Shown one piece after another: positions 1 to 17,923 of a DNA stretch of 64,000 bases. The translations under genes were made by a program, and so were the position numbers. The stretch is from positions 1,760,001 through 1,824,000 of the forward strand of contig CBDCDZ010000004.1 of the NCBI GenBank assembly GCA_965215565.1. Direction: 5' to 3'. The notes under the pieces are model-generated. The model was given only the letters and a program-made list of their open reading frames with translations, had not been told where the DNA came from and made no database searches. This DNA comes from Trueperaceae bacterium. GTDB taxonomy: Bacteria > Deinococcota > Deinococci > Deinococcales > Trueperaceae. How positions within the stretch are numbered: the stretch's first letter is position 1; each line of letters begins with the position of its first letter.

Positions 1-273
1 GCGCTCGCTGACCCCACGCGCCGCCATATCTTGAAGGAGCTTCGCAAGGGCGAGCGGAGCGCGGGTGAACTCGCGGCGCTCTTTCCGCTGAGCAAGAGCA
101 CCCTTTCGGGTCACTTCGCCGTGCTCAAAGCCGCCGACTTAGTCGAGACGGAGCGGCGCGGCACAACGATTCTCTATAGGCTCAACGCGACTGTGTTTCA
201 AGAGGTGTTGGAGGGGCTACTAGACCTCTTAGGCGTCGGCAAGGAGGAAGCGGATGACTTGGCCCAAACATAA
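1..273 (+). CDS. ArsR/SdpR-family transcriptional repressor (5' end outside window)
   Basis: Frame is open from base 1: ALADPTRRHIL...SAGELAALFPLSKSTLSGHFAVLKAADLV...RRGTTILYRLN, an ArsR winged HTH; overlaps the SdpI-like gene. Confidence 0.9.
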   Translation, partial: ALADPTRRHILKELRKGERSAGELAALFPLSKSTLSGHFAVLKAADLVETERRGTTILYRLNATVFQEVLEGLLDLLGVGKEEADDLAQT

Positions 274-904
274 CTGGCTCGTCGCTATGAGCTTTATAGC
301 GATGCTCACAGCATCGATTGTCGGCTGGCTCAATTTGGAGGGACCGCTCCCTGTCCATTGGGGGCTTGACGGTGAGCCTACTAGATACGGAACGAAGCTC
401 GAGGCGCTGGGGATACTCCCCTTTCTCGCGCTGGTGAGTTATGTGACGAAAGTCTTCTCATCAGCAGACGAGAAGTCTTCGAGAAATGCTCGAGTTCTTC
501 CCGCTATCGCTCAGGTTTTAGTTCTCGGTTTGACGATCATCCATGTCGGCACTGTGATGAACTATTTAGGCGTAGCCGTGTCCCTTTCTAATGTCGGTGC
601 GCTCGGCTTGGGTATCATTTTAGTAGGCGTCGGCAACCTTATGCCTAAACTCGCGCCGAACCATCTTGTAGGGGTGCGGTTGCCCTGGCTTTATAAGAGT
701 GAAAAGGCGTGGTACAAGACGCAGCGGGCGGGCGGTTGGGTTTTCGCAACAAGCGGCGTTGCTTTTATTCTAATTGGGCTTTTCGCAGAGGGCGAGGCTG
801 CTTTAATGTGGGGCACTGTAGGTCTACTCCTTGGTGCGGCGGGCGTCGTTGCATATAGTTATTGGGTTTGGCGTAACGACGACGCGCGGACCTCACTTGA
901 ATAG
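254..904 (+). CDS. SdpI-family membrane immunity protein (DUF1648 + SdpI)
   Basis: PLPVHWGLDGEPTRYG and GNLMPKLAPNHLVGVRLPW...W..TQR.GG motifs; about 6 TM segments; follows an SdpR-like gene. Confidence 0.85.
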   Translation: MTWPKHNWLVAMSFIAMLTASIVGWLNLEGPLPVHWGLDGEPTRYGTKLEALGILPFLALVSYVTKVFSSADEKSSRNARVLPAIAQVLVLGLTIIHVGTVMNYLGVAVSLSNVGALGLGIILVGVGNLMPKLAPNHLVGVRLPWLYKSEKAWYKTQRAGGWVFATSGVAFILIGLFAEGEAALMWGTVGLLLGAAGVVAYSYWVWRNDDARTSLE

Positions 905-963
905 AGCCTCATCTAGAAAGCCAGGACCTGCGCTGTTAGGCTGCTCGAGCCTAAAATTATGTT

Positions 964-993
964 ATCCTTACTTTACAGAAGTGAGGTAAGGAT
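964..993. promoter_or_regulatory. Inverted-repeat operator of the vapBC pair
   Basis: ATCCTTAC (964-971) ... GTAAGGAT (986-993), overlapping the antitoxin ATG. Confidence 0.55.
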
Positions 994-1225
994 GAAGAAC
1001 ACTGCCACCATAACGAGCAAAGGACAGATAACGATTCCTCAAGAGGTGCGCCAACGCCTCGGGCTCAAACAGGGCGATAAAGTTACCTTTGAGGTTGAGA
1101 ACGGTCTCACGGTGCTCAAACCTTACAGGGGCGAAGCAAATCCCTTTGCGGCCTATGCAGGTGCATTAGGCAGCCTTGAAACTGAAGAAGAGGTGGGCGC
1201 TTGGCTGAGCGACTTACGCGAGTAG
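992..1225 (+). CDS. AbrB/MazE/SpoVT-family antitoxin (VapB-like)
   Basis: ATITSKGQITIPQEVRQRLGLKQGDKVTF swapped-hairpin signature; upstream of a PIN toxin. Confidence 0.9.
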   Translation: MKNTATITSKGQITIPQEVRQRLGLKQGDKVTFEVENGLTVLKPYRGEANPFAAYAGALGSLETEEEVGAWLSDLRE

Positions 1226-1239
1226 GTGTCTAAGAACAG

Positions 1240-1665
1240 GTGCTTACAGCTATCGACACGAACATCATCAGCGCCCTCTGGTCACAAGAACCCGCCTCGG
1301 CAGGCGTCGCAGCGTCCCTCTTCGCTGCGCAGCAGCGAGGCGGACTCGTCATCTGCGCGGCTGTATACTGCGAACTCTTGGCATATCCGGGAGCGAGCAC
1401 GCCCTTCGTCCAGAAATTTTTAGACGACGCAGATATCCAAGTGCATTACGTTTTGAATGAGGCAGTATGGCGAGACGTAGGCGAGGCGTTTGCGGCGTAC
1501 GCGCAGCGCCGCAGAAGAGGTAAAGCCGGGCAGCCTAAACGTCTACTTGCAGATTTCATCGTTGGTGCTCACGCGCTTCACGCGGCAGACCGCTTACTTA
1601 CGTTGGACGTCAACCGCTATATCGCAAGCTTTCCAACCCTCGAGGTCATAGGACGAGAAACGTAA
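1240..1665 (+). CDS. PIN-domain toxin (VapC family)
   Basis: AIDTNII...VYCELL...LLADFIVGAHA...LLTLD acidic PIN motifs. Confidence 0.9.
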   Translation: MLTAIDTNIISALWSQEPASAGVAASLFAAQQRGGLVICAAVYCELLAYPGASTPFVQKFLDDADIQVHYVLNEAVWRDVGEAFAAYAQRRRRGKAGQPKRLLADFIVGAHALHAADRLLTLDVNRYIASFPTLEVIGRET

Positions 1666-4931: not shown

Positions 4932-5059
4932 TTCCGGTTAAGTGCGCTACTTTGTAGCGCATTTAATCCCGAGCAGAGCGAGTAGAAATAGCGACGGGTT
5001 CCGGTGAGTACGGAATCAACTCCACAGGAGTTTATGCAGTAATCAACCGGAATCCGTAT
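4932..5059. repeat. Deinococcus-type small non-coding repeat / MITE-like element
   Basis: TTCCGGTT...AACCGGAATCCGTAT ends, internal hairpin TGCGCTACTTTGTAGCGCA and GAGC..GCGAGTAG core; resembles (from memory) the ATACGGATTCCG-ended repeats of Deinococcus. Confidence 0.6.
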
Positions 5060-5775
5060 TATAGCGCCTCCGGGAGCAAGAGCGCAGCCGTGAGCGCAAT
5101 GGGCGCAGTTTCGGCGCGGAGAATGCGCGCGCCCAAGGTGACACCCTTAGCACCCTTTTCGATCAGAAATTCAACCTCGTGCTCGCTCAATCCCCCTTCG
5201 GGTCCGGTGATGAGCGTGACCTCTTCTGCATCCGAGCCTGCGTCTGACTTCAGGACCTCTTGCAGGGTTGCGGAGGCGAAAGGATGCGCGATGAGTGTGA
5301 GAGGTCCCAAGTCCAACTTGGACAACTTGCAAAGCGCCTCCACCTCCGGCACGACGCTCCGCCCCGACTGCTTGGCGGCCTCTTTCGCGACGCGGCGGTA
5401 GCGCGTCAGCTTGTTATCAGAAAGGACTTTGACGTCGCAGCGGGCAGTCAAAACGGGGATGAAGCGCACCGCGCCGAGTTCGGTGCCGCGCCGCACGACT
5501 TCGGAGAATTTGTCGCCTTTAAGGAGGGGTACGGCGAGGGTGAGCTTGAGGGCGGCTTCTACGTCGCTCGGTTTGGGTAATTCTAAGCGGAGTGTGACGC
5601 TCAGTTCGTCCACCTCTTGCACTTCGCCCGCAGCTTCTAACCCTAAACCGTCGAACGCTTTCACCTTCGCCCCTGGTTTAACCCGCAAAACTTGCGCGAG
5701 ATGATGCGCCTCCGCGCCCGAGAGCGTCCGCTCACCCGCCTCTAAATCCTTCAGAAAGACACGATAAATTCTCAT
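5059..5775 (-). CDS. rsmE: 16S rRNA m3U1498 methyltransferase
   Basis: HHLAQVLRVKPG, TELGA, EAAKQSGR, GPEGGLS, LGARILRAETA. Confidence 0.97.
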   Translation of the reverse strand: MRIYRVFLKDLEAGERTLSGAEAHHLAQVLRVKPGAKVKAFDGLGLEAAGEVQEVDELSVTLRLELPKPSDVEAALKLTLAVPLLKGDKFSEVVRRGTELGAVRFIPVLTARCDVKVLSDNKLTRYRRVAKEAAKQSGRSVVPEVEALCKLSKLDLGPLTLIAHPFASATLQEVLKSDAGSDAEEVTLITGPEGGLSEHEVEFLIEKGAKGVTLGARILRAETAPIALTAALLLPEAL

Positions 5776-5785
5776 TTGTGGACCC

Positions 5786-6568
5786 TCACGAGTCGCGCTC
5801 CCTCTGAGCCAAGATAAGCGCCCACTCCTCTTTATGTTCGACTGAATGAACCGTGAGGTGAGCCTCGAGCGCCCCTTTCGCCATTTCTAAGCGCTCATCC
5901 AGAATCCCCGTCGCCAAGAGCCAGCCGCCCGGACGCAAGGCGCGGCAGTACGCGCTAGCAAAGTCTACGTGCAGTTCGGCAAAGAGGTTCGCGGTGACAA
6001 TATCAAAGCCTTCAGATACGGTGTCGTCGAACGTACCGAGCCTAAAGGTCGCCTTCGAATGATTGAGGGCGCGGTTTTCTTCTGCCACGGGTAAGGTCAA
6101 GGGGTCAATGTCAATTCCGACGGCTTCGGCTGCGCCTAAGAGGTCAGCGGCAATCGTTAAAATGCCCGAGCCTGCGCCTACATCCAGAACTCGTTTATTT
6201 TTTAGTCGAAAGGTCTCGAGCGCAGCCAACGCAAGGTGCGTCGTCGCGTGGTGCCCCGTGCCGAACGCCATGCCGGGGTCGAGCCAGAGGACGCGGCGCG
6301 TTTCATCCGTTGGGATTTCACAGTGCGTCGGCGCGACGATGAGGTGCCCTAAATAAACAGGTTCAAGCTCTGCGTAATACGCCGCTAAGTAATCCGTCTC
6401 TTCAACCTCTTGCCAGGTGCCTTGTAGGGGCAGGGCGACCGCTTCAGCGAAGTACGCCACCACCTCATCACCCTCTTGAGCGATCCCGAGACAGCCCGCC
6501 TCCCACAAGAGAGAGGTCTCCACTTCTAAATTCTCCAACTCGCCCTGCATGTGGAATGAAACGCTCAT
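5786..6568 (-). CDS. prmA: 50S ribosomal protein L11 methyltransferase
   Basis: LDPGMAFGTGHHATT, VLDVGAGSGIL; start overlaps the upstream stop (ATGA). Confidence 0.95.
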   Translation of the reverse strand: MSVSFHMQGELENLEVETSLLWEAGCLGIAQEGDEVVAYFAEAVALPLQGTWQEVEETDYLAAYYAELEPVYLGHLIVAPTHCEIPTDETRRVLWLDPGMAFGTGHHATTHLALAALETFRLKNKRVLDVGAGSGILTIAADLLGAAEAVGIDIDPLTLPVAEENRALNHSKATFRLGTFDDTVSEGFDIVTANLFAELHVDFASAYCRALRPGGWLLATGILDERLEMAKGALEAHLTVHSVEHKEEWALILAQRERDS

Positions 6569-8250
6569 GCGAGTTCCTTGGGGTTGGCGACGCGCGCATC
6601 GCGGGTCACGATCTCGAAGCCGAGCCGCGCTCCCTCGTGCAGATAGAACTCGATATCGGCGCTCTTCGTCGCGCCACCTAACGACTTGCGGTGAAACGCC
6701 CGCGTCGCGCTCATGATCATCGTCTCTGCCATGCACGCGGGCACCATACCATCGCCAAAGTGCAAGTCGAGGTGGCTGCGCATCGCACCGGGCGGGCGCA
6801 CCACGCCGCCGGGGATGAGGTGGACGCCGGGAACCTCACGGACGCTCTCGTCCACGTCGGCAGGACGCCCGAGGTCGAAAATCCAAGCGCCGGGTTTGAC
6901 GTGGTGAGCGAACAGGACGGGCGCAGGATCAGAGGTCGCGGTGAAGATGAGGTCAGCCGTTTCGCACGCGGCAACGTCGGTGCTTATCTCAATCTGTGTA
7001 CCGGAGTATTTGCGGCGCAACGTTTTAGCACTGCGTTCTAAACGCGCTTCGTCTCGCCCGATGAGGATGAGACGCGCCACCTCTGGGGCGATGGTGCGGG
7101 CAACGCCAAAGGCGACGACGCCGTTTGCACCGATGATAGCGGCGCTCGAGCGCCCAAGCGCCCCCCCTTCCGCCTTGAAGCGCTTCAAGAGTCCCGGCAC
7201 CGCCGCCTTGACCGTCGCCGCCGTATACGCGCCGCCATTCGTGATGTGAATCTCCGGCACTGCCTCTTGCACTTTGAGCCCCTTCTCCCCTACCGTAGAC
7301 CAAAACGCGCCCAGCCCAAACGCCTCCGCGCCGAGTTCGTGCGCAAGCCGCGCCCCCTGAACCGCCAAGCGCGTCGCCTCTTCGGGATAGCGACGAATCT
7401 GCTCCGGGAACAAGGGACCGCTGAGGATCATCACGCGCAACTCGCGCCCGTCCGCCAATCGAATACCGCGCATCTCGTCCTGTTTTTGCGGACGCAAGAA
7501 GCGCAAAGCGCGGCGTATGAGGGAAAGCGGAATAACGCCGCGCTTTACCAGAAGACCGAGCCAACGCAAACTGCCTAGCTGCCAAACGTCGTCCATCGTC
7601 AGCGGGTGAATCATAAAGGCGGCGGTGACGACGTTCGGGTCTACGCCGCGCACGGGAGGCGGTTTGCCGAGCTTAGGCTCCGTCTGGTCCAAAATTCGCG
7701 CGAGCCCGACTTTGTGCCGCCACAGCCCTAAGATGAAGATGAGGCTTCCAACGAGCGTCAGCGGCGCAGGCTGAGAGACCCAAGCCAGGGTGAAAGCGAG
7801 CGTCAGAAGTCCCGCCACCGTCGCGAGCGTGATGTAACGACTCCAAGCGAGGAGAATAGCGTAGACCGCAAGTGGCGCGATTACGGTCCAAAGAGGGACG
7901 CCTGTGTAGACCCACAGCCCCACCAAAATCCCGAGGGTGACGCCGCTCCCTCTACCGCGCGGCACCTCGCCATAAGAAAGCCACGTCAGCGGGTAGAGAT
8001 GCCCCGCATATACTCCGAGCGCCACCCAGGGATTGCCCGCGAAAAGCGCCAGCACCGCGAAGCCTTTAAGCGCGTCTACGGCGAACGACGTGAGCACAGT
8101 GCCTACGCCGACGAAGCGCATCACGTTCTCGATGCCCAAGTTGTGCGCCGTCACCTCGCTCGGCTTGAGCCGCGTCGCCCAAACGACGAGGAAGCTACCC
8201 AAAGGTGACGAGCCGATGAGGTAGCTCGCTAAGAGGATGAGGGCGTCCAC
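6565..8250 (-). CDS. PlsY-like acyltransferase fused to an acyl-ACP-reductase-like Rossmann domain
   Basis: N-terminal YLIGSSPLG, DALKG, GHLYP, RH..LARI (PlsY-like); C-terminal AFMIHPL, GLGAFWS, TNGGAYT, GANGVVA, PACMAE (AAR-like). Confidence 0.85.
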   Translation of the reverse strand: MDALILLASYLIGSSPLGSFLVVWATRLKPSEVTAHNLGIENVMRFVGVGTVLTSFAVDALKGFAVLALFAGNPWVALGVYAGHLYPLTWLSYGEVPRGRGSGVTLGILVGLWVYTGVPLWTVIAPLAVYAILLAWSRYITLATVAGLLTLAFTLAWVSQPAPLTLVGSLIFILGLWRHKVGLARILDQTEPKLGKPPPVRGVDPNVVTAAFMIHPLTMDDVWQLGSLRWLGLLVKRGVIPLSLIRRALRFLRPQKQDEMRGIRLADGRELRVMILSGPLFPEQIRRYPEEATRLAVQGARLAHELGAEAFGLGAFWSTVGEKGLKVQEAVPEIHITNGGAYTAATVKAAVPGLLKRFKAEGGALGRSSAAIIGANGVVAFGVARTIAPEVARLILIGRDEARLERSAKTLRRKYSGTQIEISTDVAACETADLIFTATSDPAPVLFAHHVKPGAWIFDLGRPADVDESVREVPGVHLIPGGVVRPPGAMRSHLDLHFGDGMVPACMAETMIMSATRAFHRKSLGGATKSADIEFYLHEGARLGFEIVTRDARVANPKELA

Positions 8251-8323
8251 GTGTCTATCTTATAGGCTTACAGGTGAGTAAAGATGACGGGGGGAACTAC
8301 CTTCAGACGAGGGAGTGCGCGGC

Positions 8324-8525: not shown

Positions 8526-8870
8526 TCACGTCTCCACCTTTAGGTACACCTGCTCGTTTTCCTCCTTGACCTCATAGGTCTCGAGCCGATACTCCCCCCC
8601 AAAATGCTCGCCCGTGCGGAGCGAAAAGGTATTTTTATGGAGCGGACACGCCACTTTGGGCTCGCCCTGCGCGTCGCCCACCAGACCTCTCGATAAGACC
8701 ATTTGCTCACGGTGCGGACACCTATTTTGCACGGCGTACCACGCGCTGTCGACAAAGAAAATGGCGATTTGTTTATCACCTAATTTGACGCAGCCGCGCC
8801 CGGTAGCGGCGAAATCACTCGTTTTGGCGACGGGTGTCCAGGTGTTGGATTCGACTAAGGTTGATGGCAT
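8526..8870 (-). CDS. nirD: Nitrite reductase small subunit (Rieske-type)
   Basis: AVQNRCPH...VLSRGLVGD...KVACPLHKNTFSL. Confidence 0.95.
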   Translation of the reverse strand: MPSTLVESNTWTPVAKTSDFAATGRGCVKLGDKQIAIFFVDSAWYAVQNRCPHREQMVLSRGLVGDAQGEPKVACPLHKNTFSLRTGEHFGGEYRLETYEVKEENEQVYLKVET

Positions 8871-8985
8871 GGGTTGACCTCTTTTCGTGGAGCAATTGGC
8901 GATTGGGTATTAGCAAAAGCTTGGCTTTTAGCTAACGGCTAACAGCTCATCTCCACTGGGTTTGTGTCACGCGAATAGCATCTTT

Positions 8986-9096
8986 TAGCAGTTCCAAAAC
9001 ATACTGAGACAGATGAGCGCAGGCATCATCACCGAATGTGCGTGTTGAACGTCGCTTCGGACAGTAAGAGTGTTTCAAACCAGATGATACCTGCTT
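8986..9096 (+). repeat. 111 bp dispersed element, copy A
   Basis: TAGCAGTTCCAAAAC...GCAGGCATCATC...CCAGATGATACCTGCT; 4 differences from the copy at 27108. Confidence 0.9.
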
Positions 9097-9124
9097 CTCA
9101 TAACGTGAGTGTTCAAGCAACGCT

Positions 9125-11665
9125 CTACTCATTGAGGGCGTTTGTGACCAGATGCAGTCGCGTGGTCCCGCTCCCGCTAGACCTGCTGTACGGCTGAATT
9201 TGTCCCCGCACCTCTTCAAACTGAATACTCGAGTCCGGCTCATCCACGTTGAGAAAGGGGCGGAAGCGGGCGAGCTTTTCGGGGTCGTTCAAGGTCTTTT
9301 TCCACTCGCATTCGTAGGTGTTTACGACATGCTGCATTTCGCGCTCTAGCTCCTCGGCAATCCCTAGCGAATCGTGAACCACCACCTCTCGCACCTTCTC
9401 CAGACCACCCGGCAGTTTGTTCAGCCACGTCGCCGTGCGCTGCAACTTATCGGCGGTGCGCACGTAGTACATCAGAAAGCGGTCGATAGTCTTAAAGACC
9501 GTCTCGGTATCGATATCACTCACCAAAAGCTGCGCGTGCTGCGGCTTCATGCCGCCGTTGCCGCCGACGTAGAGGTTCCAGCCCTTGTCGGTTGCGATGA
9601 TGCCAACGTCTTTACCCTGCGCCTCGGCGCATTCGCGGGCGCAGCCGGAGACCGCCATCTTGACCTTGTGCGGGGTGCGCAGCCCTTTATAGCGGTTCTC
9701 GATATTGATGGCGAGCGTCGTCGAGTCCTGCACGCCGAAGCGACACCACGATTTACCGACGCAACTCTTCACCGTGCGGAGCGACTTGGCGTAGGCGTGA
9801 CCCGTCTCTAACCCTGCGTCCACCAGCCGCGCCCAGATGTCGGGCAAGTCCTCCAATCTCGCCCCGAAGAGGTCGATGCGCTGCCCGCCTGTGATTTTCG
9901 AGTAAAGCCCGTACGCTTTCGCTACGGAACCAATGGCGATGAGTTGGTCCGGCGTCAACTCGCCGCCTGGGACGCGCGGCACGACGGAATACGAACCGTT
10001 CTTCTGTATATTCGCCATAAAGACGTCGTTGGTGTCTTGGACGCCCTGGTGGTCCATGACGTGCTCGTTGTAGGTGCTCGCCAAGATAGAAGCGACGGCG
10101 GGTTTGCAGACCTCGCAGCCTAAGCCCGTGCCGTAGCGCCCTAAAAGTTCATCAAAGGTGTGAACCCTGCCGAGCTTGATGATTTCAACTAACTCCTGGC
10201 GGGTGTAGGCGAAGTGCTCACATAGAGACTTATCCACCGTAATGCCGGCTTTTTCCAGCTCGAGCCCCACCAAATCTTTGAGAAGCGGCACGCAACTTCC
10301 GCAACCTGAGCCCGCGCCGCACGATTTTTTGAGCCCCGCGACGTTCTGGTAGCCCGCCGCAATTTGCGCCGTAATCGTCCCCTTCGAGACGTTCTCGCAG
10401 CTACAAATCACCGCTTCGTCGGGAAGAGACTCGAGCCCCATCCCCTCCGGTTCAGCCGCCGCGACGAGCAGTCCTTCGGGCGCAGCAGGAAGAGGTGTCT
10501 TGCCCAAGTAAAGCTGCAAGAGCCGCCCGTAGCTTTCGGCGTCACCGACTAAAACAGCACCTCTTAGGGTGCCGTCACTTCTCGAGGTCACGAGCTTTTT
10601 GTAAACACCCGCTTGCGAGTTCGACACCACAGTTACGTCGCAATCGTCCTCTGCGGTACTGTCCCCGATGCTCGCCACGTCCACGCCCATCAGCTTGAGC
10701 TTGGTGGACATATCTGCCCCTGTAAACTCACCTTCTTTAGATAAGAGGTGCGCCGCCGCCGCCTCCGCCATGCGGTAGCCGGGGGCGACTAAACCGTAAA
10801 TCATCCCGCCGTAAAGCGCACATTCGCCCACCGCGTAGATGTCGGGGTCGGAGGTCTGCATCGTTTCGCTGACCCGGATGCCGCCGCGCTCGCCCACGTT
10901 CAAGCCAGAAGAACGCGCCAACTCGTCACGCGGACGGATGCCCGCCGAGACGACGATCATATCTACCTCGAGCTGAGATTCATCCGCAAACGCCATCCCC
11001 GTGACCTTGCCGTTGCCCAAGACCTGCTTCGTCGCTTTAGAGAGGTGGACGCCGACGCCTAGCGCTTCGATCTTGCGCTTTAAGAAGTCCGAGCCCGTCT
11101 GGTCCACCTGGCGCGGCATGAGGCGCGGCGCGAACTCGACGACGTGGGTTTGCAGCCCCATGTCTACGAGGGCTTTGGCAGCCTCGAGCCCTAAGAGCCC
11201 GCCGCCGATGACCGCCGCACTCTGGCAATACTCCCCATACGCCATCATCGCGTCCAAATCCTCGATCGTGCGGTAGACGAAGACACCCTCCTTGTCGGTA
11301 CCGGGGACAGGCGGTACAAAGGGGAACGAACCCGTCGCTAAAACGAGCTTGTCGTAAGGGACCTCTTCGCCTTTTTTGGAGATGACCTTTTTGCGCCCTC
11401 GGTCAAGCGCCGCCACCGCGTCCCCTAAACGGAGCGAGACGCCGCGCTCTTCGTACCACCCTAGCGGCGCGAGGCTCAGTTCATCCGCCGTTTTGCCAGA
11501 GAAGTATGCGCTCAGTTGCACGCGGTCATAGGCGGGGCGGACCTCTTCGCAGAAGGTGATGATGTCGTACGTACCGTCCGCGTCAGCTTTCGTGAGCTTG
11601 TCGATGAACTTATGCCCCACCATGCCGTTGCCGACGACGACGAGTTTTTGTTTGGGGTGCGTCAT
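9125..11665 (-). CDS. nirB: NAD(P)H nitrite reductase large subunit
   Basis: VVVGNGMVG, GGGLLGLEAA, CSCENVSKG, CGSC, VKSCVGKSWC, SGCAREC sirohaem/Fe-S motifs. Confidence 0.98.
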   Translation of the reverse strand: MTHPKQKLVVVGNGMVGHKFIDKLTKADADGTYDIITFCEEVRPAYDRVQLSAYFSGKTADELSLAPLGWYEERGVSLRLGDAVAALDRGRKKVISKKGEEVPYDKLVLATGSFPFVPPVPGTDKEGVFVYRTIEDLDAMMAYGEYCQSAAVIGGGLLGLEAAKALVDMGLQTHVVEFAPRLMPRQVDQTGSDFLKRKIEALGVGVHLSKATKQVLGNGKVTGMAFADESQLEVDMIVVSAGIRPRDELARSSGLNVGERGGIRVSETMQTSDPDIYAVGECALYGGMIYGLVAPGYRMAEAAAAHLLSKEGEFTGADMSTKLKLMGVDVASIGDSTAEDDCDVTVVSNSQAGVYKKLVTSRSDGTLRGAVLVGDAESYGRLLQLYLGKTPLPAAPEGLLVAAAEPEGMGLESLPDEAVICSCENVSKGTITAQIAAGYQNVAGLKKSCGAGSGCGSCVPLLKDLVGLELEKAGITVDKSLCEHFAYTRQELVEIIKLGRVHTFDELLGRYGTGLGCEVCKPAVASILASTYNEHVMDHQGVQDTNDVFMANIQKNGSYSVVPRVPGGELTPDQLIAIGSVAKAYGLYSKITGGQRIDLFGARLEDLPDIWARLVDAGLETGHAYAKSLRTVKSCVGKSWCRFGVQDSTTLAINIENRYKGLRTPHKVKMAVSGCARECAEAQGKDVGIIATDKGWNLYVGGNGGMKPQHAQLLVSDIDTETVFKTIDRFLMYYVRTADKLQRTATWLNKLPGGLEKVREVVVHDSLGIAEELEREMQHVVNTYECEWKKTLNDPEKLARFRPFLNVDEPDSSIQFEEVRGQIQPYSRSSGSGTTRLHLVTNALNE

Positions 11666-12454
11666 ACGCTGACCTCTTCTCTTTCGGAACACAGATAGGG
11701 CAAAGGCGTCTGCACATTCAACCCCTCTTCAATACGCGCTGCAATCACGTCCATCAGGAGCGAACCAAATCCCAGATGCTGCGTCAGGGTGATACTAATA
11801 TCCGGGTGACGCGCTTTCGCTGCGTCAACCGCTTCGGGCAAATCCTCCTGTACGTGTGCGCCGAGCTGTAAGAAGTAAGGCGTGGCGAGTACGCGCTTCG
11901 CGCCCGCTTCAACCACCTCGTCAACCGCGTCCGCAATCGTCGGTGCGTTGCACTCCATGTAGGCGACGGTGACACGCTTGTAGTCCCTTGCTCGCTGAAC
12001 GCGCTCCGCGACGCGCTCAATAAAGAGGTTTGCTTTAGGGCGCGGCGTACCGTGTGCCATGAGGACGACGGCGGTGTCTTCGGGGACCTCTTGATACACC
12101 TCGTCCAACCGCTTCATCACAAGTTTGGCCAAGGCGGGATGATCGCCGAAAGGTTCAGCCTTTCCGAATGTCACGTGTGGGCGCTTTGCCTGCTCCTCCT
12201 TGGTGAGCTTCGCGAGGGCGACGTTCACGTAATAGCCAGGAATGAGAAAATAAGGTTGCACAAGGATACTCGTCGCGCCTTTTTTAAGACAACGCTGGAT
12301 CGGCTTCAGCGAAGGTCGGGCGGCTGAAATTCAAGAAGCCCGCTGTGGCGATAGGGGCGAGACCCCGCTTGCGGACCTCGGCGGCGTGCCGAATCATCGC
12401 TGCGCCGGAAGCTTTTTTGAGGCTGCCGTGTCCAACCAAGACAACGGCTTGCAT
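11662..12454 (-). pseudogene. Two-domain sirohydrochlorin chelatase (CbiX/SirB) with a +1 frameshift near 12302
   Basis: MQAVVLVGHGSLKK...FLNFSRPTFAEA continues in a shifted frame as IQRCLKKGATSILVQPYFLIPG...MAHGT...GAHVQEDLP; span 793 nt = 3n+1. May be an assembly error. Confidence 0.85.
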
Positions 12455-13317
12455 CAGCTTTCTCCTTGTAGATACTGGACCTCTTGGACGGGCGCGTCTA
12501 GCTTGCTGTTAAGGTCTATATCGTGAACGAACCAGCGCAACTCGTCGCGCAGCCTCACCACCTCACCGATAACGATGGCGGCGGGTGCGGTGAGACCGGC
12601 GATGCGGATAGCTTGGGGAAGCATTTCTAAAGTTGCTACCACCGTCTCTTGCTCTCTCGTTGTCCCATAACGAATTGCAGCGGCGGGCGTGTCGGGGTTG
12701 CGTCCGTGGGTGATGAGTTCGTCCACGATGCTTTCAATATGTCCGACGCCCATCAAGATGACGAGCGTGTCTACCGCCGTTGCGAGGGCGGCGTAGTTGA
12801 GGCTCGAGCCCATCCCACCCTTGAATTTACATGGGTCTTCATGTCCCGCGACGACGGCAAACGAGGTCGCTACGCGCCGGTGCGTCACCGGAATTCCAGC
12901 ATAGGCAGGCGCAGCAATCGCGGACGAGATACCCGGCACGACTTCGAATGGCACGCCCGCCGCCTTGAGCACCAACGCTTCTTCGCCGCCGCGTCCAAAA
13001 ATGAAGGGGTCGCCTCCCTTGAGCCGCACAACCTTGTGACCCTCTAACCCTTTTTGAACAAGTAGCGCGTTAATCGACTCCTGCGTCCAAGAGGTGCGGC
13101 ACGCCCCGCGTCCATCGCCGTGCTTGCCGACGTAGATGAGTTCAGCGTCAGCGCGGCATTCTCTGAGAAGTTCGGGATTCACCAGCCGGTCATACGCGGT
13201 GACATCTGCCTCACGCAAGCGCCTTAGAGCTTTAACGGTAATCAACTCAGGGTCGCCGCAGCCCGCGCCGACGAGCGAGACGAAGCCTGTTGATTTTGAA
13301 CTGTTTGTATCGGTCAT
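12454..13317 (-). CDS. cobA: Uroporphyrinogen-III C-methyltransferase (SUMT)
   Basis: VSLVGAGCGDPELIT, VVRLKGGDPFIFGRGGEE, AGIPVTHR. Confidence 0.96.
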   Translation of the reverse strand: MTDTNSSKSTGFVSLVGAGCGDPELITVKALRRLREADVTAYDRLVNPELLRECRADAELIYVGKHGDGRGACRTSWTQESINALLVQKGLEGHKVVRLKGGDPFIFGRGGEEALVLKAAGVPFEVVPGISSAIAAPAYAGIPVTHRRVATSFAVVAGHEDPCKFKGGMGSSLNYAALATAVDTLVILMGVGHIESIVDELITHGRNPDTPAAAIRYGTTREQETVVATLEMLPQAIRIAGLTAPAAIVIGEVVRLRDELRWFVHDIDLNSKLDAPVQEVQYLQGES

Positions 13318-13396
13318 CGTGACCTCCTGATGGTTGTGGCTCGAGTCTTACCTCTTGGATGTTTCAAACTTTGCTGCACAACCACCTCACTACCTC

Positions 13397-14281
13397 TTAG
13401 CTTCTCTGCGCTTTCACATGTGCCGCATACGCCATTATCATCGCGCCCATGCGCTCTCTCTCGGGTGCGATGACCTCTTCGGTGCCCGCGTCTTTCAACG
13501 CTTTCGTCGTCATGTGCCCAACGGAGACGGCTTGAACGTCACCGTTAAACGCACCTCTTAGCTCAGCCCCTAGCCCTAACCGCTCAGCAATCCCGAAGAG
13601 GAAAAAGACCTGCGTGTTGCTCGTGAAGGCGGCGGCGTCTAGTTCGCCTGAGATGATCTCCCCTACAAAGGCACGCACCTCTTCTTCGGGCGGCTCTTGA
13701 TACTGATAGAGAGGAATTTCTAAGACGCTTGCGCCGCGCTCCATCAACCAAGTCGTCAACTCAGGCACCCTAGTTCCGTGAAGCTGGATAGCAATATGTT
13801 TCCCCGAAAAATCTACCGGCTCCAACTGCCGCCGCAAGCCTAGAAGCGTCCCGTCGTCATCTAGTACATCCGGCTTTAAGCTCATCTCTTTAAGCGCTTT
13901 GACCGTCTTGTAGCCGCGTACGGCGAGGTGGGTGTGCTCGAGCTTAGCGGTAAAGTCAGCTTCCACACCTAACGAAACCGCCACCTCGCGCATCGCCCGC
14001 ATTCCCATGCCTGTGGTTGCAACCAGCCAATCCGCACCTTCGTCTGCAAATCTCTTTACCGCTTCCGTAACGTTAGGTGAGTCTAAAGACTCGGTAACCA
14101 TCATCGGGCGGGACAAGGGAATCGCGCCGAGTTTCTCAATGAGAGCGCTCAGTTCAGCGCTCCGGCGTGCGCCGCAGAAGGCGATGCGTTTTTCAGCAAG
14201 AGGTTTGATAGCTTTTGGATTAGTCATAGCTCTTTTTGTAACCGAGTCAAACCCCGCCGGTTGCGGCGCACGTAACATCAT
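13397..14281 (-). CDS. Uroporphyrinogen-III synthase-like protein (HemD fold)
   Basis: RRSAELSALIEKLGA, TTGMG, RGYKT, IQLHG, AFTSNTQV, VGHMT; inside the nitrate/sirohaem operon. Confidence 0.85.
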   Translation of the reverse strand: MMLRAPQPAGFDSVTKRAMTNPKAIKPLAEKRIAFCGARRSAELSALIEKLGAIPLSRPMMVTESLDSPNVTEAVKRFADEGADWLVATTGMGMRAMREVAVSLGVEADFTAKLEHTHLAVRGYKTVKALKEMSLKPDVLDDDGTLLGLRRQLEPVDFSGKHIAIQLHGTRVPELTTWLMERGASVLEIPLYQYQEPPEEEVRAFVGEIISGELDAAAFTSNTQVFFLFGIAERLGLGAELRGAFNGDVQAVSVGHMTTKALKDAGTEEVIAPERERMGAMIMAYAAHVKAQRS

Positions 14282-14286
14282 CTCAC

Positions 14287-15615
14287 CTAGTCGCCCGCTC
14301 CAGCTAAACGCTCCAGCATCTCGTTTCTCGCCACCGCTTCTTGCTCCTCGCTAAAGCGCACCGCGAAAGCCAAGAACGAACAGCCTAAAACGAGCGCCCC
14401 AACGATGAGGTACGCCTGCTCGAAGGGCATCTGTCCCTTGAACAAAAAGCCCGCCATCACTGCGCCGAAGTTGCCGCCCGCCCCAACGATGCCCGCCACC
14501 GGACCGAGCGCTCGCTTGTTGATGTACGGAACGATAGAGTACGTCGCGCCCTCGCTCATCTGCACGAACAAGCTGAATACGATGAGAATCGGGATGGCGA
14601 ACGCCAGAGCGCCCAACTGCGAGAAGAACATCAGAGCGATGCCCTCTAAAAACAGACACGCGAAGAGAAACTGCACGCGCCCTTTGAGCCCTCTTTGCTG
14701 ATTGAGCTTGTCGCTAAAAATTCCGCCGAGCGAGCGTGCAAAAATATTCATCAGCCCGAACAAGCTCGCCACCAAACCCGCCGTCGCCACGTTCAACCCG
14801 AAGCGGTCGAAGAAGTACAAAGCTGCCGTGCCGTTGATGGTCAGCTCAACACCGAAGCACGCCGCGTAGATGAAAAAGAGTGCGACGACGCGGCGGTCTT
14901 TGAGCGCTTCCCAGAATGCGCCTTTATGGTGCTCGCGCGTGGGCATCTCGCCCTTGGCGCGCAGTTCATCGTAATTGCCGTCCGGCGCGTCCTGCGTGAA
15001 AAAGTAGTAGGCGATGCCCGTAAGAAAGAGCGCGACGCCCGGAATCACCATCGCGACGCGCCAGCCGAAAAGGGGCTCCGCGCCGAAAGTGAGCACCGCC
15101 GCCAGGATGAGGGGCATGACCGCCTGCGTCACGCCGCCACCCAGGTTGCCCCAGCCCGCCGTGGTCGCGTTCGCCGTGCCGACGATGTTGGGCGCGAACA
15201 TCACGCTGGTGTGGTACTGCGTGATGACAAAGCCCGCGCCGATGACGCCGATGAGCAGCCGGGCGATCAAAAAGTGCGTGTAGTTCTGCGACAGTCCGAT
15301 GAGCATGACGGGCAGCGAGCCTAAGATGAGCAACCACGTGTAGGTGATGCGCCCCCCGAAGCGGTCTAAAATCGCGCCGATGCCGAGCCGCGCGAAGATG
15401 GTGATGAAAACCGCTGCGATGACCGTGTTGCCGACTTGCGCGGGCGTCAGCCCGAGCGTGGCGATGACGCCGTTGTCACCCTTCATCAGCGGGACGATAC
15501 CGAACCAGCCGAAGAAGCACAGGAAGAAGGCGAACCAGGTGAGGTGAAAGGCGCGCATCTGCGGCGAGCCGAGGCTAAAGAGGTTGATGCGGGTGGCTTT
15601 GTTCTTGAAGTCCAT
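14287..15615 (-). CDS. NarK/NasA-family nitrate/nitrite MFS transporter
   Basis: GTANATTAGWGNLGGG and FARSLGG nitrate-porter signatures; AGGAG RBS. Confidence 0.96.
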   Translation of the reverse strand: MDFKNKATRINLFSLGSPQMRAFHLTWFAFFLCFFGWFGIVPLMKGDNGVIATLGLTPAQVGNTVIAAVFITIFARLGIGAILDRFGGRITYTWLLILGSLPVMLIGLSQNYTHFLIARLLIGVIGAGFVITQYHTSVMFAPNIVGTANATTAGWGNLGGGVTQAVMPLILAAVLTFGAEPLFGWRVAMVIPGVALFLTGIAYYFFTQDAPDGNYDELRAKGEMPTREHHKGAFWEALKDRRVVALFFIYAACFGVELTINGTAALYFFDRFGLNVATAGLVASLFGLMNIFARSLGGIFSDKLNQQRGLKGRVQFLFACLFLEGIALMFFSQLGALAFAIPILIVFSLFVQMSEGATYSIVPYINKRALGPVAGIVGAGGNFGAVMAGFLFKGQMPFEQAYLIVGALVLGCSFLAFAVRFSEEQEAVARNEMLERLAGAGD

Positions 15616-15724
15616 TTTTTCTCCTAAACTCATCTATAGTTTGAAATCACACAAAAATGAAATTTTATGCAAACATGGCTGCACAAGACTAGGGAGACAT
15701 TCGCAGAACCTCCTCGAGTAGGAC

Positions 15725-17923
15725 TCAGTCAGACGCGGTGAGATTGAGTATTGAGTCAGTATCGGTGTGGGTCAAATCGGTTTGGGGGACGGGCTCGAGC
15801 CGCGCCGCACACACCTTGAATTCGGGCATCTTGCAGTGGGGGTCTAGAACGGGATTCGTCAAACGGTTCGCCGCTTGCGCCCCTTCCCAGTGCATAGGGA
15901 TAAAGAGTACGCCAGGCTTGATCTTCTTGCTGATTTTGACCTTGAAGAGCGCGGCGGCGCGGCGCGTGCTGAGGCGGGCGTACTCGCCTTGGATGAGCTT
16001 GAGTTGCGCCGCCGTCACTGGGCTCACCTCCACCCAGGGCTCGGGGCGTTTGCTCGCTAAGAGGGGCGTGCGCCGCGTGTGGTTGCCGGTGAGGTAGTGA
16101 ACCAGTGTGCGCCCTGTCGTGAGTTGGAAGGGGTAGTCTCCGTCAGGGATTTCGTTCGGTTGTCGGTAGGGGATGACGTGGAAGGCGGCGCGTCCGTCCG
16201 CGTGGGCGAAGCGCTCGGTGAAGACGTTGGGCGTGCCGGGGTGCGAGAGGTCGGGGCAGGGCCAGAAGAGCCCGTCACCTTCGCGCAACCTCTCGTACGT
16301 GACGCCGTAATAGTCAGCGGGACCCCCTTTCGAGGCGCGCCTAAGCTCCTCGAAGATATCCTCTGGTTGAGCAGAGAGAAACTGCCGCGTATGCCCGAGC
16401 CGCTGCGCAACCTCCACGATGATGTCCAAGTCGCGCCGCGCTCCTTTGGGTGGCTCGCGCAAGGCTTCGCGCAGGACGACGCGCCCCTCTAAGTTCGTCG
16501 TCGTGCCCGTCTCTTCCGCCCACAGCGAGCCGGGCAGCACCACGTCCGCAAGCGAAGCGGTTTCTGATAAAAACGAGTCCACCACGACGAGGTGGTCCAT
16601 CTCTTTGACCCAGGCGCGCACCCTATCGGTGTCCGGGCTGCTCACCACGGGGTTCGAGCCGAGCACGAACAGCCCGCGCACCTCTTTGCGCCCAACCGCC
16701 TGCATCAGTTCAAACGCGGAGTAGCCGGGTCCGGGGAGGCTGTCTGCGTCTACGCCCCACACGCTCGCAACGTGTTCACGGGCTGCGTCATCCGCAATCG
16801 AACGGTAGCCCGGAAGCTGGTCCGCTTTCATGCCGTGTTCGCGTCCGCCTTGTCCGTTGGCTTGCCCCGTAAGCGTGCCGTAGTTCGCGCCCAACGCAAG
16901 CGAGAGGTTGATAAACGCGAGGGTGGTTTCGACACCGCGAGAGTTCTGGTCCGCTCCACGCCCCGTGAGAATCAGTGGATTCTTCGCCTCTGAGAGCAGT
17001 TTGGCAGCCTCAAAGACTTGCGGCTCCTCCAACCCGGACATCTGGATGAGGTGTTCTAGGGGAATACTTTGGAGATACTCAGCAACCTTCTCAAACCCGT
17101 TCGTCCGCGCGGAAATAAACGTCTCATCTTGCCAAGCGTTGTCCAAAACGACGCGCAAAAGCGCATTGGCGAGCGCCAAGTCGCCGCCTAAGTCCACGGG
17201 CAGATGGAGCGCGGCGAGGTTCGCCGTCGTCGTTTTGCGCGGGTCTACGACGATGAACTTTGCGCCTCTGTCCCTCGCCTCCAAAAGCGTATTCACCAAA
17301 ATCGGCAGCGTCTCCGCCGTGTTCGAGCCGATGATTAAAATCGCGTCGTGCTCGGGGATATCCGCCATCGGCATGTTGAGCCCCCGGTCCAACCCGAAAG
17401 CTTTGAGCGCACCGGACGCAGCCGCTGCCATGCAGTAGCGCCCGTTGTAGTCGATGTGCGGCGTATGAAGGGCGACTCGAGCAAACTTGCCCAAGAGGTA
17501 CGCCTTCTCCGTCGAGACCGACGCGCCCGAATAGACCGCGTTCGCCGCGTGACCGTATTTGAATTGCAAAAATTTGAAACCCGCCACGACGCGCTCCAAC
17601 GCTTCATCCCAAGGGGCAGGAACGAGTTCGCCGCCGCGACGCACTAAGGGCGTCGTCAACCTCTCGGCGTGGTCGAAAAGCTTGACGCTGTTTTGTCCCA
17701 AAACGCAGAGTTTGCCCCTGTTGATGGGGTGCTCTTGCGGCGCTACCTCAACCTCCTTCGCCCCATCCGTCAGCGTCATGCCGCACTGCACCGCGCAGTA
17801 GCAGCAGTGCGTCTTCACCGTTTGTGACGATGTTTTCGTACGCACATCTGTCTGATTGTCCTTGCGGATCGGCGCATCTGGCAAAGGGACACCAGACGCC
17901 GTCCTCGCTGCACTTTTGGGCAT
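15725..17923 (-). CDS. Assimilatory nitrate reductase catalytic subunit (Mo-bisPGD)
   Basis: HCCYCAVQCG...GKLC Fe-S motif, IDYNGRYCM, TGQANGQGGREHG, LTTGR, MPEFK. Confidence 0.96.
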   Translation of the reverse strand: MPKSAARTASGVPLPDAPIRKDNQTDVRTKTSSQTVKTHCCYCAVQCGMTLTDGAKEVEVAPQEHPINRGKLCVLGQNSVKLFDHAERLTTPLVRRGGELVPAPWDEALERVVAGFKFLQFKYGHAANAVYSGASVSTEKAYLLGKFARVALHTPHIDYNGRYCMAAAASGALKAFGLDRGLNMPMADIPEHDAILIIGSNTAETLPILVNTLLEARDRGAKFIVVDPRKTTTANLAALHLPVDLGGDLALANALLRVVLDNAWQDETFISARTNGFEKVAEYLQSIPLEHLIQMSGLEEPQVFEAAKLLSEAKNPLILTGRGADQNSRGVETTLAFINLSLALGANYGTLTGQANGQGGREHGMKADQLPGYRSIADDAAREHVASVWGVDADSLPGPGYSAFELMQAVGRKEVRGLFVLGSNPVVSSPDTDRVRAWVKEMDHLVVVDSFLSETASLADVVLPGSLWAEETGTTTNLEGRVVLREALREPPKGARRDLDIIVEVAQRLGHTRQFLSAQPEDIFEELRRASKGGPADYYGVTYERLREGDGLFWPCPDLSHPGTPNVFTERFAHADGRAAFHVIPYRQPNEIPDGDYPFQLTTGRTLVHYLTGNHTRRTPLLASKRPEPWVEVSPVTAAQLKLIQGEYARLSTRRAAALFKVKISKKIKPGVLFIPMHWEGAQAANRLTNPVLDPHCKMPEFKVCAARLEPVPQTDLTHTDTDSILNLTASD

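What the first reader, a model, noticed from the sequence alone, without database searches (positions are those of the whole stretch)
6565..8250. PlsY-like acyltransferase fused to an acyl-ACP-reductase-like domain: candidate enzyme for Deinococcota alkylamine/diol lipids
Seen: about 195 aa of PlsY fold with altered motifs (TAHNLGIEN for GSGNxGATN, RGRGSG for GGKG, RHKVG for RHxxN), then about 350 aa with AFMIHPL, GLGAF, TNGGAYT, a Rossmann Gly motif and PACMAE. Established: cyanobacterial acyl-ACP reductase has its catalytic Cys in FACFAE and makes fatty aldehydes; Deinococcus-Thermus membranes contain N-glyceroyl-alkylamine phosphoglycolipids and, in some, long-chain 1,2-diols. Inference: the fusion couples acyl reduction to acyl transfer onto an acceptor other than glycerol-3-phosphate.
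Basis: partly seen in the sequence, partly recalled or inferred. Interest (0 to 1): 0.72.

Follow-up and report, generated by a model that had tools for sequence, protein, structure and literature searches.

The report
Membrane fatty-amine reductase of Deinococcus-Thermus
This gene encodes a membrane-anchored enzyme that probably starts the conversion of fatty acids into the fatty amines of the signature membrane lipid of Deinococcus and Thermus, and two unlinked partner genes found here make that long-missing pathway testable.

Summary
The 561-aa ORF joins a PlsY fold (Z 20) to an acyl-ACP-reductase fold (Z 31); Cys506 aligns with the AAR catalytic Cys. It is present in 244 of 251 Deinococcota genomes, nearly always beside a canonical plsY.

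Two unlinked partners emerged. One is a PigE-like class-III transaminase (TA); the other is a Cys-less AAR-fold protein X (COG5322). Both are near-universal in the phylum, and elsewhere they form TA-START-reductase-X operons or fusions. Four genomes in three lineages lack the fusion. All four also lack the TA orthologue, keep X, and carry another reductase+transaminase set (TamH-type in three). The reductase is therefore most likely half of a split TamH/PigE system making the alkylamine of N-glyceroyl-alkylamine phosphoglycolipids (about 0.7; no biochemical proof).

The PlsY-like domain has lost G3P-binding residues but keeps the phosphate pocket, and it persists in MAGs lacking PlsX. Whether it forms the glyceroyl amide (about 0.3) or only anchors the enzyme is open. 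Nothing specifically supports diols.

This scan noted the same fusion, and the TA/X operons, before on other DNA.

The parts
6565..8250 (-). Fusion gene, 561 aa: remodelled PlsY-fold membrane domain plus AAR/TamH-type thioester reductase
7663..8250 (-). PlsY-like domain (aa 1-196). Keeps N37, H84 (=H92 of Aquifex PlsY), R100 (=K104), R185 (=R183) and E191 (=E189). Changed: A35 (S35), E41 (T41), R98 (G102), G182 (N180)
6586..7632 (-). Acyl-thioester reductase domain (aa 207-555), AAR/PigE/TamH-TR fold with a Rossmann subdomain
6733..6735 (-). Cys506 codon, putative catalytic nucleophile (= Cys294 of S. elongatus AAR)
   Evidence: alignment; Cys in 213 of 214 aligned fusions, one gap
7105..7131 (-). 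NAD(P)H-binding glycine loop GANGVVAFG (aa 374-382)
8257..8262 (-). TAAGAT (TANNNT) hexamer 6 nt upstream of the GTG start; probable -10 element of a leaderless transcript (inferred)
   Evidence: sequence; leaderless -10 pattern from the search listing of PMC12340547; not found by the sigma-70 scan
5786..6568 (-). prmA (L11 methyltransferase); its ATG overlaps the fusion's TGA (ATGA). Housekeeping neighbour, used as synteny marker
   Evidence: adjacent to the fusion in 29 of 30 family-f1 loci
5059..5775 (-). rsmE (16S rRNA m3U1498 methyltransferase), downstream in the same run of genes

Best explanation
The C-terminal domain is the thioester-reductase half of a split TamH/PigE-type fatty-amine system that supplies the alkylamine chain of Deinococcota N-glyceroyl-alkylamine phosphoglycolipids. 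Step 1 (fold and residues shown, activity inferred): acyl-ACP or acyl-CoA acylates Cys506 and NAD(P)H releases a fatty aldehyde of unchanged chain length. Step 2 (inferred from co-occurrence and co-loss): an unlinked PigE-like class-III transaminase (G000 C4:912722-914179, +) converts the aldehyde to the alkylamine. Step 3 (partnership shown genomically, role unknown): X, a Cys-less AAR-fold protein (COG5322; G000 C4:3888189-3889088, -, upstream of efp-accB-accC), acts in the same pathway. The N-terminal PlsY-like domain holds the reductase at the membrane and is no longer the G3P acyltransferase in Deinococcota. It most likely either transfers an activated D-glyceroyl group to the amine or only anchors the enzyme and channels the lipid (see rivals).
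For: Fold and Cys. Precedent: the TamH TR+TA makes a C12 amine from acyl-ACP (PMC9594044, passages), and PigE is TR+TA (PMC8341465, whole text). Lipid fit: the T. thermophilus alkylamine is iso-C17 like its fatty acids (PMC3398001), and the enzymes for this third chain are stated to be unidentified (PMC9636437). Core-gene behaviour: fusion in 244 of 251, X in 247 of 251, TA orthologue at E<1e-116 in 63 of 69 f1, 101 of 103 f2 and 5 of 5 f5 genomes, and a related TA in 73 of 73 f3/f4 genomes. X neighbourhoods: of 80 metagenome loci, 37 hold an AAR-like gene and 16 a class-III TA, 13 of them as TA-START-AAR-X or X-TA-START-AAR operons and one as X plus a TA-TR fusion. X is fused to the reductase in 16 of 150 representatives and adjacent in 25 of 30 Bacillota-type loci. 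The Deinococcota TAs fall in a 35-row clade (SH-aLRT 99) with X-operon TAs and TA-TR fusions, apart from LysJ/RocD/GabT/HemL. Co-loss: G167, G182, G201 and G246 lack the fusion at its prmA site and lack the TA orthologue, while their congeners G169, G194 and G234 keep both. The TamH-type TA-TR occurs in only 3 of 251 genomes (G182, G201, G246); G167 has a stand-alone reductase plus a TA-START pair; all four keep X. The losses lie in three separate lineages. X homologues are named from Moorella sp., Thermosediminibacter and Thermoanaerobacter, and M. thermoacetica has N-glyceroyl alkylamines (PMC13274423 table).
Against: There is no biochemical or genetic evidence, and the product lipid is inferred from phylum-wide distribution. 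Closed genome G237 has only a C-terminal remnant of the fusion and no other reductase was found, yet it keeps TA and X, so the fusion is dispensable there. G182 and G246 are fragmented (550-620 contigs), and the lipoprotein-TA synteny cannot prove TA loss because it is also broken in fusion-bearing congeners. The f3/f4 TA is a separate branch from the f1/f2 TA, and the f1/f2 branch is long (1.62) in a quick tree without bootstrap. The TA was not found in G133 and is ambiguous in G004; X was not found in G079, G091, G188 or G235 (G004, G079, G091 and G133 have withheld bases). AAR-fold domains need not reduce: TAD has the same fold and Cys (Z 29) and is proposed to amidate (bioRxiv 2024.10.28.620694). 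No lipid operon surrounds the fusion. The lipids of the four replacement genomes are unknown, and the Moorella link is at genus level only.
Confidence: 0.7

Rival explanations
1. Sub-model A for the N-terminal domain: a reversed-polarity PlsY. The alkylamine sits in the acyl groove and a soluble acyl-phosphate (1,3-bisphospho-D-glycerate or another activated glycerate) sits in the phosphate pocket, forming the N-(phospho)glyceroyl amide.
For: Phosphate-hole His (H84) and E191 are present in 214 of 214 fusions, and R185 in 210 of 214. A new Arg at the G102 position is present in 195 of 196 clade-A rows, with Glu at T41 in 168 of 169 Deinococcota rows, so the site is under selection but remodelled. 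The remodelled fusion persists in 9 of 14 Armatimonadota-labelled or syntenic unnamed MAGs where neither PlsX nor a canonical-scoring PlsY was found, so there it does not depend on fatty acyl-phosphate. The lipid's glycerate is D (PMC3398001).
Against: No PlsY-like gene occurs near 80 X loci. Genomes that lost the fusion gained no extra PlsY (PF02660 counts 2, 2, 1, 2 against a usual 3). The H177 equivalent varies (H/Q/F/Y). No donor was tested.
Confidence: 0.3
2. Sub-model B for the N-terminal domain: a non-transferase membrane anchor and lipid channel, standing in for the START/SRPBCC protein of other operons. The amide is then made by X or another enzyme.
For: START proteins accompany the reductase/TA/X operons, and START domains are fused to AAR-like domains. 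Several PlsY residues are replaced by ones that cripple Aquifex PlsY (S35A 4.8%, H177F 0.3%, H177Y 0.03%; PMC5700162 Table 2). X is kept when the fusion is replaced and has many invariant polar residues.
Against: Invariant His, Arg and Glu around the old active site across three phyla are more than an anchor needs.
Confidence: 0.4
3. Sub-model C: the PlsY-like domain captures PlsX-made fatty acyl-phosphate and hands the acyl group to Cys506, making the enzyme an acyl-phosphate reductase.
For: The acyl-phosphate pocket is kept while G3P residues are lost. PlsX is present in G000. An AMP-forming acyl-activating enzyme accompanies the TA-TR in G182 and G246.
Against: PlsX was not found in 9 of 14 MAGs that keep the remodelled fusion. 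T41, which binds the acyl-phosphate carbonyl, is replaced. G201's TA-TR has no adjacent ligase.
Confidence: 0.15
4. The reductase feeds a non-amine lipid (long-chain 1,2-diol, fatty alcohol, wax ester, ether) or a non-lipid amine metabolite.
For: A fatty aldehyde is a common precursor (established chemistry). Diol glycolipids are reported in Thermus (title of Wait et al. 1997 in the reference list of PMC3398001). X clusters are common in Chloroflexota, where diol lipids occur (recalled). AAR-like domains are also fused to PlsC-type acyltransferases.
Against: Co-loss with, and replacement by, transaminase-bearing systems points to an amine. The gene is universal in Deinococcus, for which I recall no diol lipids.
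Confidence: 0.18
5. TAD-like chemistry: Cys506 carries an acyl or glyceroyl thioester that is released by an amine, so the domain makes the amide instead of reducing.
For: The carmabin TAD is the next-best structural match (9e50_B Z 29.0, rmsd 4.4, 334 aligned) and is proposed to amidate through the same Cys.
Against: The domain is closer to AAR (Z 31.4, 22% identity) and matches the PigE reductase model. It is replaced by TamH-type TA-TR in three genomes. TAD activity itself has not been reconstituted.
Confidence: 0.07
6. An ordinary G3P acyltransferase that happens to be fused to a dehydrogenase.
For: In three Armatimonadota-type MAGs (G253, G255, G569) a fusion with near-canonical motifs (GSHNIGATN, RGKA, HKEN) is the only PlsY found and PlsX is present. 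Clade-B fusions (one labelled Patescibacteria) keep canonical motifs. This is probably the ancestral state.
Against: In Deinococcota Ser35 is kept in 0 of 169 rows and Thr41 in 0 of 169; a canonical plsY exists in G000; the TIGR00023 cut-off is not met.
Confidence: 0.05

Closest known systems
TamH (tambjamine) and PigE (prodigiosin) thioester reductase-transaminase fusions
   Same: AAR-type reductase with catalytic Cys and a class-III transaminase of the PigE type, giving acyl thioester to aldehyde to amine
   Different: Here the reductase is fused to a membrane PlsY-fold domain, the transaminase is a separate unlinked gene, a third protein X co-occurs, and the genes are phylum-wide core genes outside any natural-product cluster
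Cyanobacterial acyl-ACP reductase (AAR; PDB 6jzy; TIGR04058)
   Same: Whole fold (Z 31.4, 324 residues), Cys294 equivalent, Rossmann loop
   Different: 22% identity, membrane-anchored, no aldehyde-deformylating oxygenase gene nearby, and the inferred partner is a transaminase
PlsY acyl-phosphate:G3P acyltransferase (Aquifex aeolicus, PDB 5xj5-5xj9; PF02660)
   Same: Membrane fold (Z 20.3), N37, H92, K104 (as Arg), R183, E189
   Different: S35, T41 and G102 are replaced throughout Deinococcota, H177 or N180 by family; fused to a reductase; a canonical paralogue is present
TAD terminal amidation domain (carmabin CarI; PDB 9e50)
   Same: AAR-like fold, invariant Cys, nucleotide site (Z 29.0)
   Different: TAD terminates NRPS modules; there is no carrier or NRPS context here

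Membership tests
PlsY (PF02660 / TIGR00023) | PlsY membrane fold and Pfam gathering score | tested here: met
   81 bits vs 24.1; Z 20.3, rmsd 2.5, 181 aligned to 5xj7
PlsY (PF02660 / TIGR00023) | Equivalog score for functional PlsY | tested here: not met
   TIGR00023 59.6 vs 137.2
PlsY (PF02660 / TIGR00023) | Acyl-phosphate pocket and Pi exit (H92, N37, 104-107 loop, R183, E189) | tested here: met
   H84 214/214, E191 214/214, R185 210/214, N37 in most rows, K104 as Arg; but T41 is Glu
PlsY (PF02660 / TIGR00023) | G3P-binding residues S35, R45, H177, N180 with the G102-G103-K104 turn | tested here: not met
   Ser35 in 0 of 169 Deinococcota rows; G102 is Arg; H177 is F/Y in named Deinococcus and Thermaceae; N180 is S/G/A in 114 of 120 nearest homologues; R45 variable
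PlsY (PF02660 / TIGR00023) | LPA formation from acyl-phosphate and G3P | not testable with these tools
   needs an enzyme assay
Cyanobacterial AAR (TIGR04058) | Two-subdomain AAR fold with catalytic Cys | tested here: met
   Cys 213/214
Cyanobacterial AAR (TIGR04058) | Equivalog score | tested here: inconclusive
   TIGR04058 is not among the 25 of 33 families shown for this protein; a Bacillota-type relative scores 124 vs cut-off 449.7
Cyanobacterial AAR (TIGR04058) | Adjacent aldehyde-deformylating oxygenase gene | tested here: not met
   neighbours are prmA, rsmE and a nitrite-reductase cluster; the rest of the genome was not searched for ADO
TamH/PigE TR-TA | AAR-type thioester reductase domain | tested here: met
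   NF053554 partial match E 3.7e-24; 4ppm E 5.4e-9
TamH/PigE TR-TA | Class-III transaminase in the same polypeptide | tested here: not met
   no PF00202 domain in the ORF; a separate PigE-like TA lies elsewhere in the genome
TamH/PigE TR-TA | Acyl thioester to amine activity | not testable with these tools
   inferred from co-occurrence and co-loss
TAD (terminal amidation domain) | Located at the end of an NRPS module with a carrier protein | tested here: not met
   domain content and neighbourhoods

The most novel reading that the evidence does not exclude
The fusion, the PigE-like transaminase and X are the missing biosynthetic core of N-glyceroyl-alkylamine phosphoglycolipids. The reductase and transaminase make the fatty amine, and a PlsY fold run in reverse (lipid as acceptor, a glycolytic acyl-phosphate as donor) forms the glyceroyl amide. 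That would be a new amide-forming activity for the PlsY family, and a lipid pathway shared by Deinococcota, thermophilic Bacillota and Armatimonadota, including lineages that appear to lack PlsX/PlsY glycerolipid synthesis.
Probability: 0.27. Interest if true: 0.9.

Novelty: new variant of a known kind. Interest (0 to 1): 0.78.

Why it matters
The alkylamine phosphoglycolipid of Deinococcus and Thermus has been known structurally since the 1980s (references in PMC10881803), and a 2022 paper states that the enzymes forming its third chain are unidentified (PMC9636437). This work names three concrete genes in genetically tractable model organisms. It would move TamH/PigE chemistry from natural products into core membrane biogenesis, give a function to the widespread mis-annotated 'quinate/shikimate dehydrogenase' COG5322 genes, and provide gene markers for predicting which bacteria make these lipids. 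A long-chain acyl-ACP-to-amine system, including from thermophiles, is also of biocatalytic interest.

Tried and rejected
Complex prediction of the reductase domain with X: no verdict (score 0.00, controls not folded); not used as evidence either way.

Neighbourhood clustering of 80 named fusion loci found only housekeeping genes and no lipid operon.

My first idea, that X is the aminating enzyme lost together with the fusion, was rejected: X is kept in the fusion-less genomes. A profile comparison of X with the fusion gave only probability 2%, E 0.024; the kinship rests on structure (6jzq Z 13.4, rmsd 4.5, 246 aligned; TAD Z 12.2; glutamate dehydrogenase Z 10.5), while Foldseek ranked sugar-binding proteins first.

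Using the upstream lipoprotein gene to show clean TA deletion failed, because the synteny is also broken in fusion-bearing congeners. G209's apparent TA loss was a contig end. G075, G240 and G133 carry the fusion split at contig ends. G141 lacks prmA too and is probably an assembly gap. G188 lacks the fusion, X, TA and the lipoprotein, and is unresolved.

CDP-alcohol phosphotransferase counts were uninformative. The T. thermophilus Tn-seq rows are all 'Intermediate' and the authors say the screen does not discriminate essential genes. The plasmid search gave only distant aminotransferase fusions.

Paper searches that found no description of this fusion or of the pathway enzymes. The library lacks most subscription papers, and Bale et al. 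2025 (Syst Appl Microbiol 48:126609) could not be read; it may discuss genes. The hypergeometric values printed are not relied on, because the genomes are not independent.
Full report
**Observation.** A TANNNT hexamer 6 nt before the GTG suggests a leaderless start (pattern from the search listing of PMC12340547), and the stop overlaps the prmA start. Residues 9-186 match PF02660 above cut-off but not the PlsY equivalog TIGR00023 (59.6 vs 137.2); residues 263-526 match the PigE model. A 10-sequence profile finds Aquifex PlsY (E 1.6e-14), S. elongatus AAR (2e-9) and PigE (5.4e-9), and aligns PACMAE with FACFAE. The AF2 model superposes on AAR 6jzy (Z 31.4, rmsd 3.7, 324 residues), carmabin TAD 9e50 (Z 29.0) and PlsY 5xj7 (Z 20.3, rmsd 2.5, 181 residues).

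**Distribution.** Full-length matches at E<1e-100 occur in 242 of 251 phylum genomes; two more are split at contig ends. Named homologues show the phylum is Deinococcota; my reading of f1 as Trueperaceae, f2 as Deinococcaceae and f3 as Thermaceae is inferred. The window's genome has two further PlsY-family genes, one canonical (GSGNIGATN, GGKG, RHKEN), and PlsX. PF02660 matches are typically 3 per genome in f1/f2 and 4 in f3/f4. The same fusion occurs in Armatimonadota-labelled and Bacillota-labelled MAGs, and a second clade with near-canonical PlsY motifs includes a Patescibacteria-labelled protein. Neighbours are housekeeping genes; in f1 the gene precedes prmA in 29 of 30 loci.

**The PlsY-like domain.** I mapped the mutational table of Aquifex PlsY (PMC5700162, passages with Table 2) onto 214 aligned fusions. 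ORFs under 480 aa were dropped, and groups were set by record title or by source call. H92 and E189 equivalents are invariant, R183 is kept in 210, and N37 is mostly kept. In the 169 Deinococcota rows Ser35 is never present, Thr41 is Glu in 168, and K104 is Arg. G102 is Arg in 195 of 196 clade-A rows. H177 is Phe or Tyr in most named Deinococcus (37 of 39) and Thermaceae (10 of 10) rows, and N180 is S/G/A in 114 of the 120 nearest homologues. The acyl-phosphate pocket is thus kept and the G3P site remodelled. Against a need for fatty acyl-phosphate: in 9 of 14 Armatimonadota-labelled or syntenic unnamed MAGs with the remodelled fusion, neither PlsX nor a canonical-scoring PlsY was found, while 4 of the 5 with PlsX have one (completeness not given). 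In G253, G255 and G569 a near-canonical fusion is the only PlsY found and PlsX is present, which is probably the ancestral arrangement.

**Partner X.** Stand-alone relatives of the reductase occur in 198 of 301 genomes of a Bacillota-type phylum. In 25 of the 30 loci examined they follow a 300-aa gene with no Pfam or NCBIfam match, labelled 'quinate 5-dehydrogenase' in databases. X is fused to the reductase in 16 of 150 cluster representatives. G000 has one unlinked copy (48% identity) at the head of X-efp-accB-accC. X is found in 247 of 251 Deinococcota genomes and in 5 of 5 fusion-bearing genomes tested outside the phylum. Its model (pLDDT 91.8) best matches AAR (Z 13.4) and TAD (Z 12.2), and its alignment has no conserved cysteine.

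**Partner transaminase.** Two earlier notes of this scan reported X in operons with a class-III aminotransferase, so I tested this. Among the best 80 of 581 metagenome X loci, my own HMMs found an AAR-like gene in 37, a TA in 16 and PlsY in none. Thirteen are TA-START-AAR-X or X-TA-START-AAR operons, one is X plus an 884-aa TA-TR fusion, one is X followed by a 534-aa TA-matching ORF, and one TA is on the opposite strand and probably unrelated. Of G000's eight class-III transaminases, one (C4:912722-914179) has the PigE model as best NCBIfam match. Its orthologue scores E<1e-116 in 63 of 69 f1, 101 of 103 f2 and 5 of 5 f5 genomes, and all 73 f3/f4 genomes hold a relative at 1e-65 to 1e-76. In a quick ML tree of 55 sequences (SH-aLRT only) these group with X-operon TAs and TA-TR fusions and apart from LysJ, RocD, GabT and HemL. 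The f1/f2 branch is long and the f3/f4 branch separate.

**Natural knock-outs.** G182 and G246 have dnaB and prmA side by side without the fusion, which their congener G234 keeps between those genes. G167 and G201 also lack it upstream of prmA, and no orthologue was found genome-wide. All four lack the TA orthologue and keep X. A 935-955-aa TA-TR in TamH order occurs in only 3 of 251 genomes, G182, G201 and G246, preceded by an AMP-forming ligase in two. G167 has a stand-alone reductase and a TA-START pair resembling the Bacillota type. It also has a ligase-TA-TR gene in a PKS cluster, but fusion-bearing G169 has this too, so it is not diagnostic. A prmA+lipoprotein tree of 26 f1 genomes puts these losses in three lineages (G182+G246; G167 nested among fusion-bearing congeners, 81/93; G201), with G237 a fourth. 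G237, a closed genome, keeps only a remnant of the fusion with no replacement found, yet retains TA and X, which counts against strict necessity. Two of the four genomes are highly fragmented, and the synteny check for TA loss was void.

**Mechanism.** Shown: folds, conserved residues, co-occurrence, fusions, operons, co-loss and replacement. Established elsewhere: AAR-type domains transfer acyl to Cys and release an aldehyde; TamH makes a C12 amine from acyl-ACP (PMC9594044, passages); PigE couples thioester reduction to transamination (PMC8341465, whole text). The T. thermophilus phosphoglycolipid carries an iso-C17 amine amide-linked to D-glycerate (PMC3398001, passages), and the enzymes for that chain are unidentified (PMC9636437, parts 1-2 of 3). 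Inferred: acyl-ACP is reduced to the aldehyde by this domain and aminated by the TA, with X in the pathway, giving the lipid's alkylamine (0.7). The amide step is open: PlsY-like domain with activated glycerate about 0.3, anchor or channel with X or another enzyme about 0.4, acyl-phosphate hand-off about 0.15. M. thermoacetica has such lipids (PMC13274423, table passage) and X homologues are named from Moorella sp. and related thermophiles; this is a genus-level hint only. TAD shows that this fold can be non-reductive (bioRxiv 2024.10.28.620694, abstract and sections 7-8).

**Known versus new.** It works like a split TamH/PigE but is not a member (the transaminase is separate); it has the PlsY fold but fails the G3P-site test. 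I found no paper describing the fusion or assigning these genes (open-access library only; Bale et al. 2025 seen only as a title, and bioRxiv supplements were closed). Earlier notes of this scan reported the same fusion in two other genomes, one with the alkylamine idea; these are not independent support. Verdict: a real, conserved, uncharacterised enzyme; new variant of a known kind; interest 0.78.

Noticed in passing
G000:C4:1064562-1065107 (L002) and phylum-wide: A second conserved PlsY paralogue (GSGNVGAMN, GGKG, KHAPS) faces a UDP-GlcNAc 2-epimerase gene. f3/f4 genomes carry a fourth PlsY-family gene that f1/f2 usually lack; T. thermophilus has four COG0344 genes. One could be the N-acyltransferase for the amide-linked acyl chain on glucosamine of Thermus glycolipids (speculation).
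   Followed up: partly
L044, L046, L047, L051, L052, L061, L071, L042, L093 (G556, G557, G254, G559, G560, G562, G563, G566, G567): In nine Armatimonadota-labelled or syntenic MAGs (several Ca. Fervidifonticultor) no PlsX and no canonical-scoring PlsY were found, and G254 gave no CDP-alcohol phosphotransferase hit, yet they keep the fusion and a related transaminase. They may build membranes largely without standard glycerophospholipids.
   Followed up: partly
P0143-P0244, e.g. P0153: A second clade of PlsY-AAR fusions with canonical-type PlsY motifs and PACLAQ, one labelled Patescibacteria; surprising for a group thought to lack lipid synthesis (recalled).
   Followed up: partly
L179-L208: A conserved ~180-aa HTH protein heads the HTH-X-reductase operon in Bacillota-type genomes, usually next to greA-lysS; no homologue was found in G000.
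   Followed up: partly
L337-L356: About 900-aa transaminase-reductase fusions occur in several Bacillota-type genomes that seem to lack the stand-alone reductase; exclusivity was not counted.
   Followed up: partly
L160:7039-19995 (G167) and G169: A PKS plus a 1472-aa ligase-transaminase-reductase gene, DUF3419 and a GNAT: an uncharacterised lipo-amine natural-product cluster.
   Followed up: no
P0182, P0249, P0176, P0184, P0190, P0229, P0260: AAR-like domains also fuse to PlsC-type acyltransferases and to START or PilZ domains, suggesting c-di-GMP control in some lineages.
   Followed up: no
window 8526-17923: An assimilatory nitrate/nitrite cluster upstream on the same strand (genes resembling nirD, nirB, cbiX/sirB, cysG, hemD, narK and nasA by translation; not scanned); unrelated to the fusion.
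   Followed up: no
window 31-1665: ArsR-like regulator with an SdpI-like membrane protein, followed by an AbrB-like/PIN-domain pair that looks like a toxin-antitoxin module (from translations).
   Followed up: no
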